The position numbers were made by a program, and so were the translations under genes. DNA of 64,000 nt, taken from the NCBI RefSeq assembly GCF_057098645.1, contig NZ_CM169472.1. One strand, given 5' to 3'. The notes beneath the pieces are model-generated. The model worked only from the letters and a program-made list of their open reading frames with translations, had not been told where the DNA came from and searched no databases. How positions within the stretch are numbered: position 1 is the first letter of the stretch; each line of letters begins with the position of its first letter. This document shows, in pieces, positions 29,364 to 31,537 of the stretch.

Positions 29364-30188
29364 TTATAGCGGAAAACGCGAAATCAGCAGCTCTAAGCGC
29401 TGGCGAATATCGCTATCCAGCGCCACCGGTGCATCATACGACTGGCGGTTTTCCATATCATCCGCCACCATGTCGTCGTGTTTATCCCCCATCAGGCCAT
29501 TAATGGCGGCGAGGAAACGGGAAATCTGTAACGCCTCTTTATTTTCAGGATCAAGCGATCTTAAGGTGTCGTAATAAGAAACCTGCTGGCTGATGATTTT
29601 TCGCACATCATGAAATTCCCTGCCGGTTAGTCGCGGTTTGGCAATTATCTCTTTCAGGGCATGCATTTGCTTTTGCCGATAGGCAATAAAACCGCTTACG
29701 CTTTCTAACTGGCTATGGCGTAATGAATAGTTCACCAACGACCAGACCGGAGAGCTTAAATAAATTCGTAACAGGTTGCCGTAATACGACACAATATTTT
29801 TCTTACCGTTACGAAATCCGTCCTGAAAACGTCCCAGAAAAACGGTCGTTTTGCCGAATAAAAATCCGGCCTGATGCTTCTTTAAATACAGCCGTTGCGC
29901 AAAACGCAGGTGCTTGTAGCGCGCTCGCATGTATTTAAATTGTTTGCGCTCATCAGCAGTCAGCTCATCGCCTTTGGCTTGTTTGCGAACTAAACGCAGT
30001 AATTCCTGACGATTAACGCCATTGAGCCAGAATTGCAGGCATAACGCGTAATTATCATGAATGATTTCGGTGGTACAACTTAGTGCAATAGTCGACGGCA
30101 AACTAACCTGTGCATCAACGACATCATCTTCTTCAATCGCAACAAATAGACGCTCGCTCGCCTCAAGCGGGAAATATTTTCTCATCAT
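29364..30188 (-). CDS. hypothetical protein (274 aa), no recognisable motif
   Basis: ORF in operon context, 1-nt overlap with yghQ stop; no signal peptide or TM evident; function unknown. Confidence 0.6.
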   Translation of the reverse strand: MMRKYFPLEASERLFVAIEEDDVVDAQVSLPSTIALSCTTEIIHDNYALCLQFWLNGVNRQELLRLVRKQAKGDELTADERKQFKYMRARYKHLRFAQRLYLKKHQAGFLFGKTTVFLGRFQDGFRNGKKNIVSYYGNLLRIYLSSPVWSLVNYSLRHSQLESVSGFIAYRQKQMHALKEIIAKPRLTGREFHDVRKIISQQVSYYDTLRSLDPENKEALQISRFLAAINGLMGDKHDDMVADDMENRQSYDAPVALDSDIRQRLELLISRFPL

Positions 30189-31537
30189 CAGGATTTCTCT
30201 CCGGCTGCGTTATAAAGCAAGGAATGGCGCTGAAAAAATGCCTTTAAGGTTGGAATTAACGAGAGCGCCACGTCCAGACATTGCCCACCGAAGTAAGCAA
30301 ACGCGGCTCCCAGCACGCCAAACAGATGACAGAACATGAACAGCAATACGATGTAGCCGATTGAGGCGATGGTTTGCGCCACGAGAAAAGCGCGCTGTTT
30401 TCCCGCCATCAATAGCAATGACTCCTGCGGGAAACCCAGCATCGAAATCACAATTGCGCCCAGCATCACCTGAATCAGGTCATACACTTCGAGATACTTA
30501 ACGCCAAACACCAGCGAAATGAGCGGCTTGCCGACGATCAACACCGCGAGCGCCACCAGAATACCGATTCCGCCCGCCAGTAAACCGGACTTCACACCTA
30601 ACAACCACGGTCTGGTGGTGCGCGGATCTAAACGCATCACCTCTGGGTAAAAACTTTTACCCAGCAAACCCGCTGGCGTTCCGGCGGCGTCGAAGAATGT
30701 CATGGCGATTTTAAATAACCCGGCGGCAGCGGGTCCTAACACGATCCCCACCAACACTGTGCTGCACGAGTTACGCGCCGACCAGATGGAGTGGGCAATG
30801 TTGGTTGACCAGACAAAACTCCACGCGCCTTTAATGTGTCGGGCAGACTCAAACAGATTCAATTTGAAGGCGTTATGGATATTTCTGCGGCGTAATTCGT
30901 GCGCGGCAAACCACCAGTACATGGTGCCGCCAACCAGATTCGACACGTACCAGGCAATAACAAAACCCGCAAAACCAAAGTCAAAATACCAGGCTGCGAC
31001 GCTCCCCGCTGCGCGCAGAAAAGGTTTCGTCGCCTGCTGTACAGCAATCAAATCAAAGCGATCTACCGCACGCAGAATGCCGGTCGGCGTGGAGGAAGCC
31101 ATTGAAGGAATGAGCGTGCAATACAGCGCCGCCAGCCAAAAGCTTTGGTCATCCAGACCTAATGAATGGGAAAGGAATGGCAGTAAGGCAATGCCGCCGA
31201 CAATCGCCACCGCGCCGCTGACGATATCCAGCGAGAAGGAAAATGAGACGACATTGCGAAATTGCTGCGGATTATTGTTGGTTAATGCTGGTGTTCCGTA
31301 CTGAACCACCAGCTGCCATGTCTGAAACTTAATAAAATCGCTGATCGACTTGGCGTACGATTGCACAATCACCAGTACGCCAAACATGGCGGGCGTCATC
31401 CCTTTACCGGCACACGAGAGCGCCAACAGACCCAGCAAAGCGCTCACGACATTACTGGAGCCTAACCAGGCGCTATTGCGAATAATGGTGCGAAACGCGC
31501 CATCTGCAAACCAATGTTTGATGTTAAAACCCGCCAA
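30188..31537 (-). CDS. yghQ: MOP/Wzx-like polysaccharide-biosynthesis family flippase-type membrane protein
   Basis: 449 aa polytopic membrane protein; N-terminal region matches YghQ; longer than the 355-aa K-12 product as I recall. Confidence 0.8.
   Translation of the reverse strand: MAGFNIKHWFADGAFRTIIRNSAWLGSSNVVSALLGLLALSCAGKGMTPAMFGVLVIVQSYAKSISDFIKFQTWQLVVQYGTPALTNNNPQQFRNVVSFSFSLDIVSGAVAIVGGIALLPFLSHSLGLDDQSFWLAALYCTLIPSMASSTPTGILRAVDRFDLIAVQQATKPFLRAAGSVAAWYFDFGFAGFVIAWYVSNLVGGTMYWWFAAHELRRRNIHNAFKLNLFESARHIKGAWSFVWSTNIAHSIWSARNSCSTVLVGIVLGPAAAGLFKIAMTFFDAAGTPAGLLGKSFYPEVMRLDPRTTRPWLLGVKSGLLAGGIGILVALAVLIVGKPLISLVFGVKYLEVYDLIQVMLGAIVISMLGFPQESLLLMAGKQRAFLVAQTIASIGYIVLLFMFCHLFGVLGAAFAYFGGQCLDVALSLIPTLKAFFQRHSLLYNAAGEKS

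What the first reader, a model, noticed from the sequence alone, without database searches (positions are those of the whole stretch)
30188..31537. Full-length 449-aa YghQ flippase-like protein
From memory the K-12 YghQ product is about 355 aa and is flanked by an IS5; here the ORF is 449 aa and overlaps the next gene by one nucleotide, suggesting K-12 carries a C-terminally truncated allele produced by the same IS5-associated deletion that removed the biosynthetic genes.
Basis: partly seen in the sequence, partly recalled or inferred. Interest (0 to 1): 0.4.

Follow-up and report, generated by a model that had tools for sequence, protein, structure and literature searches.

The report
Full-length YghQ; K-12 copy is truncated
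This window carries the intact 449-residue form of the membrane flippase-like protein YghQ, and the familiar 355-residue E. coli K-12 version is a dead remnant cut at an IS5 element, which is correct and useful for annotation but not surprising.

Summary
The window is E. coli O145:H28 RM12581. On the minus strand, 30188..31537, it carries a 449-codon ORF with a TTG start. Its TGA stop shares one base with the ATG of the next gene.

K-12 YghQ (355 aa) aligns colinearly with residues 1-355 only. In K-12, window 22086..30469 (8,384 bp) is replaced by a 1,195-bp IS5 with no target-site duplication (TTAA on one side, CTAA on the other).

One refinement: the K-12 stop is a CAG-to-TAG change at codon 356, lying in the CTAA next to IS5. 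Nine wild genomes carry the same TAG in native sequence without IS5. The nonsense mutation therefore probably came first and created the IS5 target.

The lost 94 residues are transmembrane helices 10-12 of a 12-helix Wzx-like MOP fold. They are under strong purifying selection (dN/dS about 0.03-0.06).

The gene sits in the E. coli sphingolipid locus already described for BL21 (yghO/bCerS, aasR, cerR, acpR, spt). A relative with 38% identity occupies the position of the Caulobacter flippase candidate CC_1166.

YghQ is most likely a flippase for a sphingolipid-type lipid. That function is inferred, not shown.

NCBI's PGAP pipeline already flags the K-12-derivative copy (strain XL1-Blue) as "missing C-terminus". 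The MG1655 reference record does not. Interest is low to moderate.

The parts
30188..31537 (-). Full-length yghQ, 449 codons plus TGA, TTG start. Predicted 12-helix MOP/Wzx-like inner-membrane flippase.
   Evidence: PGAP WP_000896862.1. Pfam PF01943 44.3 bits against a cut-off of 28.2. AlphaFold2 pLDDT 94. Best PDB match WzxE 9g9n, TM 0.76/0.82.
30188..30472 (-). Codons 356-449 plus stop: the part absent from the K-12 product. It forms predicted transmembrane helices 10-12 and holds the motif GFPQESLLxMAGKQR.
   Evidence: K-12 ends after residue 355. (invariant residues 366-382 across Enterobacterales). (helices 350-377, 381-406, 408-435). (dN/dS 0.03-0.06 within Escherichia).
30470..30472 (-). 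Codon 356, CAG (Gln) here. In K-12 and nine wild genomes it is TAG, which makes the plus-strand tetramer CTAA, an IS5 target.
22086..30469 (.). Segment of 8,384 bp that K-12 lacks and replaces with a 1,195-bp IS5. It runs from the first 40 nt of yghO to codon 357 of yghQ.
   Evidence: BLAST of K-12 locus L001 against the window. MG1655 annotation: IS5LO at 3130146..3131340.
22082..22085 (.). TTAA, the native tetramer that abuts the other end of IS5 in K-12. It differs from the CTAA at the yghQ end, so there is no target-site duplication.
29364..30188 (-). 274-aa conserved hypothetical protein, start overlapping the yghQ stop by 1 nt. All-alpha, weakly CHAD-like. Sits directly downstream of yghQ relatives in 70 of 80 loci.
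   Evidence: AlphaFold2 pLDDT 95.8. Best PDB match is CHAD domain 6qv5, E 0.14. Pfam CHAD weak in 2 of 31 members.
28792..29352 (-). YtfJ-family protein.
   Evidence: Pfam PF09695, E 8e-58. PGAP.
27691..28761 (-). Second copy of LptF (LptF2-like permease).
   Evidence: Pfam PF03739. NCBIfam TIGR04407 319 bits. Parallel to Caulobacter CC_1155/1156.
26615..27694 (-). Second copy of LptG (LptG2-like permease).
26583..26617 (.). 16-bp-stem hairpin between the convergent spt and lptG2 genes. Probable bidirectional terminator.
22529..26580 (+). aasR (22529..24217), cerR/epi (24214..25128), acpR (25160..25408) and spt (25408..26580): the sphingoid-base synthesis operon.
   Evidence: NCBIfam serine palmitoyltransferase 600 bits against a cut-off of 500. 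The BL21 orthologues ECD_02851-02854 were characterised in PMC9386255.
20983..22125 (-). yghO, homologue of bacterial ceramide synthase (aca/bCerS). It is a pseudogene in this strain, with TGA at 21778..21780 in place of Trp.
   Evidence: PMC9386255 figure 9 legend.
31583..33952 (.). yghR (31583..32341, -), yghS (32373..33086, -) and yghT (33260..33952, +): three paralogous P-loop, dTMP-kinase-like proteins linked to yghQ relatives in most loci.

Best explanation
Window 30188..31537 (minus strand) is the ancestral, intact yghQ gene. It encodes a 12-helix inner-membrane protein of the MOP/Wzx-like flippase class.

It is the third gene of a seven-gene minus-strand operon: yghS-yghR-yghQ-hyp274-ytfJ-lptF2-lptG2. 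That operon converges on the sphingoid-base operon aasR-cerR-acpR-spt, with yghO (ceramide synthase homologue) beyond it.

Shown:
- The K-12 'YghQ' of 355 aa is the N-terminal 79% of this protein and ends at a TAG in place of Gln356.
- The DNA from that codon to the 5' end of yghO (8,384 bp, eight genes plus two gene ends) is replaced in K-12 by one IS5 with unlike flanks.
- The lost C-terminus is helices 10-12 and is strongly conserved.

Inferred:
- Order of events. A CAG-to-TAG mutation arose first in a phylogroup-A lineage and created a CTAA IS5 target. IS5 then landed there and removed the interval up to a TTAA in yghO, either by adjacent deletion or by recombination with a second copy. 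A sister lineage lost the region by a different deletion reaching gspL.
- Function. [quoted passage not shown] I put about 0.5 on this function. I put about 0.97 on the allele and truncation statement.
- The K-12 remnant cannot form the C-lobe and is non-functional as a transporter.
For: Allele and truncation:
- Searches show the ORF.
- Searches show the K-12 colinearity, the IS5 junctions, the 355-aa product and the TAG at L001 8002-8004.
- PGAP marks the K-12-derivative (XL1-Blue) yghQ as 'incomplete; missing C-terminus'.
- the K-12 junction occurs in 347 of 5,426 complete genomes.
- 4,167 genomes carry native sequence across the breakpoint.
- orthologues are 444-445 aa and the C-terminus holds invariant motifs.
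- dN/dS is 0.03-0.06 for codons 356-449.
- BL21(DE3) has the whole locus intact, including a 449-aa yghQ.

Order of events:
- nine wild genomes carry CTAA with 38 nt of native yghQ beyond it and no IS5.
- Their flank is 99.956% identical to K-12 over 9 kb.
- the nearest intact allele (UMNK88) has CTGA.

Fold:
- pLDDT 94, twelve helices.
- WzxE is the top PDB hit, followed by MATE and MurJ.

Function:
- the neighbouring genes make 3-oxo-sphinganine (BL21 study).
- relatives are found in Enterobacterales, Rhodanobacteraceae, Sphingomonadales and Acetobacteraceae. spt is within 10 kb in 44 of 47 close loci.
- a 38%-identical relative occupies the CC_1166 slot of a Caulobacter-type cluster.
- CC_1166 is in the same InterPro/Pfam family and has been proposed as the phosphosphingolipid flippase.
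Against: - No experiment shows that E. coli makes a sphingolipid from this locus in vivo, or that any member of this family flips one. The CC_1166 role is itself only a proposal.
- In this very strain yghO carries an internal stop, so the pathway may be broken here.
- More distant family members (38% identity or less) sit beside glycosyltransferases and a pyruvyl transferase. Family membership alone therefore does not fix the substrate.
- The E. coli cluster lacks all the Caulobacter head-group genes.
- The 'nonsense first' order rests on nine related genomes.
- No intact-cluster genome with TAG was found, and no IS5 insertion flanked by a duplication.
Confidence: 0.8

Rival explanations
1. 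YghQ is a classical Wzx-type flippase for an undecaprenyl-diphosphate-linked sugar unit of a surface polysaccharide. Its position next to the sphingolipid genes would then be incidental.
For: The Pfam family is 'Polysaccharide biosynthesis protein'. The best solved-structure match is the lipid III flippase WzxE. Distant family members lie next to GT4, PMT_2 and pyruvyl-transferase genes. PGAP names it 'lipopolysaccharide biosynthesis protein'.
Against: None of the 13 genes from yghO to yghT is a glycosyltransferase, an initiating phosphotransferase, a polymerase or a chain-length regulator. Linkage to spt/aasR/acpR, or to the hyp274 and P-loop genes, is conserved over four orders of Proteobacteria known for sphingolipids. 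Identity to WzxE is only 17%.
Confidence: 0.12
2. YghQ is a MATE-like secondary exporter of a small soluble metabolite or drug, not a lipid flippase.
For: MATE transporters are among the top structural matches. A weak NCBIfam hit to a MATE efflux model was seen. The K-12 yghQ deletion shifted the chlorhexidine MIC two-fold in one study (PMC8170033).
Against: It passes the Pfam threshold for the Wzx/PST family, not for MatE. WzxE gives the best TM-scores. The chlorhexidine effect is at the limit of the assay and was measured on the truncated K-12 remnant. Plasmid yghQ did not change the MIC.
Confidence: 0.08
3. The whole locus is a decaying remnant in E. coli with no current function, so the full-length ORF is merely a not-yet-degraded gene.
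For: Losses are recurrent and independent:
- the K-12 IS5 deletion;
- the gspL-yghQ deletion in nine genomes;
- an IS26 deletion;
- another 3' truncation, hit H27;
- a 123-bp deletion in strain RR1;
- the yghO stop in this strain.

In addition, 789 of 5,426 genomes have no match to yghQ or yghR.
Against: dN/dS of about 0.04 across Escherichia species and against other genera indicates long-term purifying selection over the full length. About 77% of complete genomes keep the region. The BL21 enzymes are active when expressed.
Confidence: 0.15
4. The IS5 event alone made the K-12 truncation. On this view the CTAA at the junction arose during or after transposition, and the nine wild genomes acquired TAG independently or by recombination.
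For: The stop lies exactly at the IS5 end. No intact-cluster genome with TAG was found among 5,426 genomes.
Against: IS5 duplicates its target and does not mutate it. The native tetramer CTGA is not a YTAR site. The nine genomes have native sequence on both sides of CTAA and a flank almost identical to K-12.
Confidence: 0.15

Closest known systems
E. coli K-12 YghQ (b2983, 355 aa)
   Same: Same gene and same TTG start. Residues 1-355 are colinear with 5 substitutions.
   Different: K-12 ends at TAG in place of Gln356 and lacks helices 10-12. IS5 follows directly and the next eight genes are gone. PGAP calls the K-12-derivative (XL1-Blue) copy a pseudogene. The MG1655 reference record still lists it as 'putative transport protein YghQ'.
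Caulobacter crescentus CC_1166 (CCNA_01224), proposed phosphosphingolipid flippase
   Same: Same InterPro/Pfam family, IPR002797 / PF01943. Encoded beside aasR-cerR-acpR-spt and near second copies of LptF/LptG. A protein in the CC_1166 position of a Caulobacter-type cluster is 38% identical to YghQ over 411 residues, E 4e-79.
   Different: CC_1166 itself was not available for alignment here. The Caulobacter cluster has the ceramide kinase, CDP-alcohol transferase, Tam41-like and nucleotidyltransferase genes for ceramide phosphoglycerate. The E. coli cluster has none of these. It has instead yghR/S/T, the CHAD-like 274-aa protein and YtfJ. Neither protein has been tested for flipping.
WzxE, lipid III flippase of enterobacterial common antigen (PDB 9g9n/9g95)
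   Same: Closest solved fold: twelve helices in two lobes, TM-score 0.76 (query) / 0.82 (target), rmsd 3.6 Å.
   Different: 17% identity. WzxE acts on an undecaprenyl-diphosphate trisaccharide and is encoded among glycosyltransferases. No such genes lie near yghQ.
MurJ and MATE transporters (MOP superfamily)
   Same: Same superfamily fold, Foldseek E 1e-8 to 1e-5.
   Different: In the Foldseek hits the MurJ chains (about 460-610 residues) are longer than the YghQ model (449) and match with lower TM-scores than WzxE. From general knowledge, not tested here, MurJ has two extra helices. MATE proteins export small solutes. YghQ passes the Pfam Polysacc_synt threshold, and no MatE-family hit was listed at E <= 0.01.
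IS5 disruption of wbbL (rfb-50) in K-12, the classic IS5 loss of an envelope glycolipid pathway
   Same: Another K-12 IS5 copy that silenced an envelope lipid or glycan pathway. wbbL is listed among the K-12 IS5 sites in PMC11677980, and the MG1655 genotype includes rfb-50.
   Different: At yghQ the IS5 is accompanied by an 8.4-kb deletion and has unlike flanks (TTAA/CTAA). That paper says only that some K-12 IS5 copies are flanked by CTAA/CTAG repeats; it does not say which, and the wbbL flanks were not examined here.

Membership tests
MOP superfamily, Wzx/PST-type flippases (Pfam PF01943 Polysacc_synt) | Sequence match to the family model above the curated threshold. | tested here: met
   PF01943 44.3 bits against a gathering score of 28.2, residues 19-280. 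PF13440 32 bits against 23. Only weak matches to NCBIfam equivalog models: NF007773 29.8 bits against a cut-off of 273. It is a divergent member, not an equivalog of any named flippase.
MOP superfamily, Wzx/PST-type flippases (Pfam PF01943 Polysacc_synt) | Twelve transmembrane helices arranged as two six-helix lobes. | tested here: met
   AlphaFold2 model with pLDDT 94 and pTM 0.90. Helices are 13-46, 49-69, 90-122, 130-157, 161-184, 188-217, then 238-267, 269-301, 309-344, 350-377, 381-406, 408-435.
MOP superfamily, Wzx/PST-type flippases (Pfam PF01943 Polysacc_synt) | Structural similarity to solved family members. | tested here: met
   Foldseek against the PDB: WzxE 9g9n E 9e-9, TM 0.76/0.82. 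MATE and MurJ follow. 56 hits at E <= 0.001.
MOP superfamily, Wzx/PST-type flippases (Pfam PF01943 Polysacc_synt) | Encoded with the glycosyltransferases, initiating transferase or polymerase of a glycan pathway (typical of Wzx). | tested here: not met
   No such domains were found in the twelve intact ORFs aasR..yghT searched across Pfam and NCBIfam. yghO could not be searched because of its internal stop; it is the ceramide-synthase (acyltransferase) homologue.
MOP superfamily, Wzx/PST-type flippases (Pfam PF01943 Polysacc_synt) | Trans-bilayer movement of a lipid-linked substrate. | not testable with these tools
   Needs biochemical or genetic assays.
Proteobacterial sphingolipid locus (Caulobacter CC_1152-CC_1168 type), transport component CC_1166 | Adjacent to spt, acpR, aasR and cerR, with bCerS nearby. 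| tested here: met
   Window genes 20983..26580. The BL21 orthologues are named in PMC9386255. spt lies within 10 kb in 44 of 47 loci with at least 60% identical YghQ.
Proteobacterial sphingolipid locus (Caulobacter CC_1152-CC_1168 type), transport component CC_1166 | Homology to the protein in the CC_1166 position. | tested here: met
   P0128 lies directly after AMP-binding/Epimerase/PP-binding/Spt/…/DAGK_cat/CDP-OH_P_transf/Metallophos. It is 38% identical, E 4e-79. CC_1166 itself was not aligned.
Proteobacterial sphingolipid locus (Caulobacter CC_1152-CC_1168 type), transport component CC_1166 | Second copies of LptF/LptG in the cluster. | tested here: met
   Window 26615..28761. No LptC2 homologue was seen among the listed ORFs.
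Proteobacterial sphingolipid locus (Caulobacter CC_1152-CC_1168 type), transport component CC_1166 | Ceramide-phosphoglycerate head-group genes: DAGK-like ceramide kinase, CDP-alcohol transferase, Tam41-like protein and nucleotidyltransferases. | tested here: not met
   None among the window's cluster genes, compared with the list. YghR/S/T are P-loop dTMP-kinase-like, unlike CpgB, which has the GGDG lipid-kinase motif.
Proteobacterial sphingolipid locus (Caulobacter CC_1152-CC_1168 type), transport component CC_1166 | The strain produces a sphingolipid that depends on the locus. | not testable with these tools
   Only heterologous over-expression data for the BL21 enzymes exist.
Simple IS5 insertion | 1,195-bp element with about 16-bp terminal inverted repeats. 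| tested here: met
   L001 6807..8001. The ends are GGAAGGTGCGAACAAA and GGAAGGTGCGAATAAG. MG1655 annotation lists IS5LO at 1,195 bp.
Simple IS5 insertion | Identical 4-bp target duplication on both sides. | tested here: not met
   TTAA on the left and CTAA on the right. The two flanks are 8.4 kb apart in intact genomes. The structure is therefore a deletion or inter-IS recombination product.

The most novel reading that the evidence does not exclude
YghQ, the translationally coupled CHAD-like 274-aa protein and the YghR/S/T P-loop kinase-like proteins may form a conserved module not previously described. The module would be specific to sphingolipid-making Proteobacteria (Enterobacterales, Rhodanobacteraceae, Sphingomonadales, Acetobacteraceae). 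It would modify and flip a sphingolipid across the inner membrane, supplying the bacterial sphingolipid flippase that a 2024 paper (PMC11087976) says has not been identified. Its head-group chemistry would differ from the Caulobacter ceramide-phosphoglycerate route.
Probability: 0.35. Interest if true: 0.6.

Novelty: already known. Interest (0 to 1): 0.28.

Why it matters
Three practical points follow.

1. The MG1655 reference record lists yghQ (b2983) and yghO (b2981) as ordinary genes. Both are cut at the IS5 junction. yghQ lacks three of twelve helices, and the N-terminus of yghO is read out of IS5 sequence. Phenotypes from Keio or ASKA yghQ constructs, such as the chlorhexidine study, concern a remnant.

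2. K-12 is a natural deletion mutant of the E. coli sphingolipid locus, while BL21(DE3) keeps all thirteen genes intact. The two standard laboratory strains therefore form a ready-made comparison.

3. The full-length protein and its conserved partners are reasonable candidates for the unidentified sphingolipid flipping step.

None of this overturns current understanding.

Tried and rejected
- Intact yghQ allele carrying TAG at codon 356. None was found among 5,426 complete genomes. The best full-coverage hits have one mismatch.
- Transposition intermediates. I searched for IS5 at the yghQ site with the native left flank, and for IS5 at the yghO TTAA with the native right flank. There were 0 genomes with at least 80% coverage in either search. 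One-step and two-step deletion therefore cannot be told apart.
- YghR/S/T as homologues of the Caulobacter ceramide kinase CpgB. Rejected: CpgB is a GGDG diacylglycerol-kinase-type enzyme, while YghR/S/T are P-loop dTMP-kinase-like.
- Identity of the 274-aa neighbour. It has no Pfam or NCBIfam hit of its own. The best fold match is a CHAD domain at E 0.14 and TM 0.46, with weak Pfam CHAD hits in 2 of 31 homologues. I leave it as 'CHAD-like, unproven'.
- The 80-sequence alignment A2 was too diverse for the locus scan. A 15-sequence alignment worked.
- Several representative homologues lay on contigs too short to show context.
- A full-text search of open-access PubMed Central and bioRxiv found no paper stating that K-12 yghQ is truncated. 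Absence from this library is not proof of absence from the literature.
- A crude hydropathy scan was superseded by the structure model.
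Full report
**What the window is.** A 3.1-kb query around the finding matches E. coli O145:H28 strain RM12581 (NZ_CP007136.1) at 100%. It matches 4,637 of 5,426 complete E. coli genomes at 90% identity or more.

**The observation.**
- ORF 30188..31537 lies on the minus strand, has 449 codons and starts with TTG. PGAP annotates the same CDS as WP_000896862.1.
- Read on the minus strand, bases 30190..30186 are TGATG. The TGA stop of this ORF and the ATG of the next gene (274 aa, 29364..30188) share one A.
- A 90%-identity cluster of 449-aa proteins has 7,811 members.
- Orthologues of 444-445 aa in Shimwellia, Citrobacter, Pluralibacter, Erwinia, Pantoea, Serratia, Sodalis, Rahnella and others align to residues 6-449.
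- Those orthologues begin at a Met where E. coli has Ile6 (ATC). The E. coli start is therefore the upstream TTG, with an uncertainty of five codons.

**The K-12 comparison.**
- The K-12 locus (XL1-Blue, L001) aligns to the window in two blocks: L001 1..6806 with window 15281..22085, and L001 8001..17932 with window 30469..40400.
- Between the blocks lies a 1,195-bp IS5 with ends GGAAGGTGCGAACAAA and GGAAGGTGCGAATAAG. MG1655 annotates it as IS5LO at 3130146..3131340.
- K-12 therefore lacks window 22086..30469, which is 8,384 bp. The end point is uncertain by one base because a C is shared.
- The lost segment holds the first 40 nt of yghO, then aasR, cerR, acpR, spt, lptG2, lptF2, ytfJ and the 274-aa gene, and finally codons 357-449 of yghQ.
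- The K-12 product is 355 aa and matches residues 1-355 apart from 5 substitutions.
- The IS5 flanks are TTAA (native, window 22082..22085) and CTAA. There is no target duplication, so this is a deletion or recombination product.
- PGAP marks yghQ in the K-12 derivative XL1-Blue as 'incomplete; missing C-terminus'.
- The curated MG1655 record lists b2983 as 'putative transport protein YghQ'. It lists b2981 yghO as an ordinary CDS that runs 70 nt into IS5.

**A refinement on cause.**
- The K-12 stop codon TAG is the complement of CTA in the CTAA flank, just outside IS5 (L001 8002-8004).
- The window has CTGA there, which makes codon 356 CAG, Gln.
- A search with the K-12 junction found 347 genomes with the full junction, mostly laboratory K-12 derivatives.
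- One partial hit, the Brazilian isolate Br_167_kylling, has CTAA preceded by 38 nt of native yghQ sequence (window 30432..30469) and no IS5. A different deletion joins that point to gspL.
- Nine genomes share this structure. The 9-kb flank of Br_167 is 99.956% identical to K-12, against 98.2% for the window.
- The closest intact allele examined (UMNK88) has CTGA.
- No intact-cluster genome with TAG was found. No IS5 copy with a native far flank was found at either site.
- The most economical reading has three steps. First, a CAG-to-TAG mutation ended the protein and turned CTGA into a YTAR-type IS5 target. Second, IS5 landed there in the K-12 line and the interval up to TTAA in yghO was lost. 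Third, the sister line lost the region through another deletion.
- This order is inferred from nine related genomes and is not proven.

**What was lost.**
- An AlphaFold2 model built on 80 homologues has pLDDT 94 and pTM 0.90. It shows twelve long helices in two groups of six.
- Residue 355 lies at the start of helix 10 (350-377). K-12 therefore lacks helices 10-12, half of the C-lobe.
- That stretch contains the best-conserved motif of the enterobacterial orthologues, GFPQESLLxMAGKQR (residues 368-382).
- It evolves at dN/dS 0.03-0.06 within Escherichia, the same as the rest of the gene.
- All full-length family representatives extend through it.
- That the K-12 remnant is non-functional as a transporter is an inference from these facts.

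**What the protein is.**
- It passes the Pfam Polysacc_synt threshold (44.3 bits against 28.2). It matches NCBIfam flippase models only weakly.
- The best solved-structure match is WzxE, the lipid III flippase (TM 0.76/0.82, 17% identity). MATE and MurJ proteins follow.
- It is a divergent member of the MOP/Wzx class.

**Genomic context.**
- On the minus strand, yghS, yghR, yghQ, the 274-aa gene, ytfJ, lptF2 and lptG2 follow each other with spacings of 31, 45, -1, 11, 30 and -4 nt.
- They converge on aasR-cerR-acpR-spt across a 16-bp-stem hairpin at 26583..26617. yghO lies beyond.
- The BL21(DE3) orthologues ECD_02850-02854 are described in the literature as the five dihydroceramide genes. AasR, AcpR and Spt from BL21 make 3-oxo-sphinganine when expressed together (PMC9386255).
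- BL21(DE3) has all thirteen genes intact, including a 449-aa yghQ.
- No glycosyltransferase or polymerase is present in the cluster.

**Wider distribution.**
- A scan of one genome per species returned 80 loci: Enterobacterales (66-97% identity), Rhodanobacteraceae (63-65%), Carnimonas, Sphingomonadales (47-57%) and Acetobacteraceae (37-43%).
- A tblastn matrix was built with the thirteen window proteins. The counts by identity to YghQ are below.

| Identity to YghQ | Loci | 274-aa gene directly downstream | P-loop genes | spt within 10 kb | ytfJ | lptF2 | yghO |
|---|---|---|---|---|---|---|---|
| 60% or more | 47 | 46 | 46 (within 10 kb) | 44 | 43 | 39 | 38 |
| 45-59% | 22 | 18 | 19 (within 3 kb) | 0 | 0 | 0 | 0 |
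| below 45% | 11 | 6 | 6 (within 3 kb) | 0 | 0 | 0 | 0 |

- One representative, 38% identical to YghQ (E 4e-79), sits in a Caulobacter-type cluster. The order there is Metallophos, CDP-OH_P_transf, DAGK_cat, a hypothetical protein, Spt, ACP, Epimerase, AMP-binding, and then the flippase homologue in the CC_1166 position.
- CC_1166 has the same InterPro family and has been proposed, without test, as the phosphosphingolipid flippase working with LptC2/F2/G2 (PMC11324152).
- A 2024 paper states that no sphingolipid flippase has yet been identified (PMC11087976).
- More distant relatives (38% identity or less) lie beside glycosyltransferases. The family is therefore not uniform in context.

**Most likely mechanism.**
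- The intact protein flips a sphingolipid-type lipid, made on the cytoplasmic face by the neighbouring enzymes, to the periplasmic leaflet. The second LptF/LptG pair would then extract it.
- This is inference from fold and synteny, and I put about 0.5 on it.
- The head group, if any, is unknown. The E. coli cluster lacks every Caulobacter head-group gene. It carries instead three P-loop dTMP-kinase-like paralogues and an all-alpha protein that resembles a CHAD domain only weakly.
- In the strain of this window, yghO has a TGA in place of Trp at 21778..21780. Ceramide synthesis may therefore be broken here.

**Recurrent decay of the locus.**
- Besides K-12 and the nine-genome deletion, there is an IS26-bounded deletion that removes yghQ and yghR.
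- There is another 3' truncation in hit H27, and a 123-bp deletion reported for strain RR1.
- 789 of 5,426 genomes have no match to the yghQ-yghR region.
- Against simple decay, about 77% of genomes keep the region, and selection on the coding sequence is strong.

**Novelty and interest.**
- The full-length protein is in RefSeq.
- The truncation is flagged by PGAP (seen here in the K-12 derivative XL1-Blue).
- The presence of the biosynthetic genes in B strains is published. The cited paper names only B strains as carriers of spt, and the absence from K-12 is shown here.
- I found no paper that spells out the K-12 truncation or the TAG/IS5 coincidence. One study treats K-12 yghQ as a working flippase gene (PMC8170033).
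- The finding is correct and tidy, useful for annotation and for choosing strains, and ordinary in kind.
- The possibly interesting part is the conserved YghQ / 274-aa protein / P-loop module as a candidate sphingolipid transport and modification unit. That goes beyond the finding and remains unproven.

Noticed in passing
window 20983..22125 (stop at 21778..21780): yghO, the homologue of bacterial ceramide synthase, has an in-frame TGA where K-12 and BL21 have Trp. PGAP marks it as a pseudogene in this O145:H28 strain. The sphingolipid pathway may therefore be interrupted here even though every other gene is intact.
   Followed up: partly
L090 (MG1655) 4044..5216 and 5147..6341; L001 5704..6840: The annotated N-terminus of K-12 yghO is read out of IS5 sequence. 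It covers 70 nt in the MG1655 record and 34 nt in the PGAP call. The native first 40 nt of the gene are deleted. The reference annotation does not flag this.
   Followed up: partly
window 29364..30188; loci L006, L010-L084: The 274-aa protein translationally coupled to yghQ has no family assignment. It is conserved directly downstream of yghQ relatives in 70 of 80 loci. It has invariant His/Asp/Arg/Lys motifs (YKxxRAxYKHLRFA, FHxxRKI, NGLMGxxHD). Its confident all-alpha model has only one faint match, a polyphosphate-binding CHAD domain.
   Followed up: partly
window 31583..33952: yghR, yghS and yghT are three paralogous P-loop proteins that PGAP names 'dTMP kinase' or 'ATP-binding protein', although they score far below the dTMP-kinase thresholds. 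One to three copies accompany yghQ relatives in Sphingomonadales and Acetobacteraceae as well. This suggests a role in the same lipid pathway rather than in nucleotide metabolism.
   Followed up: partly
L003 8900..9042 (Br_167_kylling) and eight other genomes: A large deletion joins gspL of the type II secretion cluster to a point 38 nt beyond codon 356 of yghQ. It removes the rest of the gsp genes, the glc operon, yghO and the sphingolipid genes. No IS element is at the junction.
   Followed up: partly
L005 8233..9049 (strain KFu015): An IS26 copy abuts yghS, and foreign genes (BCCT transporter, DUF2254, TetR regulator) replace yghR, yghQ and everything to the left. This is another independent loss of the locus.
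   Followed up: no
window 26615..28761: The second LptF/LptG pair scores above the NCBIfam equivalog cut-offs (319 and 309 bits). PGAP therefore names them 'LPS export ABC transporter permease LptF/LptG', identical to the essential genes elsewhere in the genome. This is an annotation trap.
   Followed up: no
window 26583..26617: A perfect 16-bp-stem hairpin fills the 34-nt gap between the convergent spt and lptG2 genes. It is probably a bidirectional terminator.
   Followed up: no
window 49791..49873 versus 38684..38772 (= L001 16284..16372): A roughly 90-nt stretch between yghU and hybG is repeated in inverted orientation at 84% identity about 11 kb away. It may be a REP-type intergenic repeat.
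   Followed up: no
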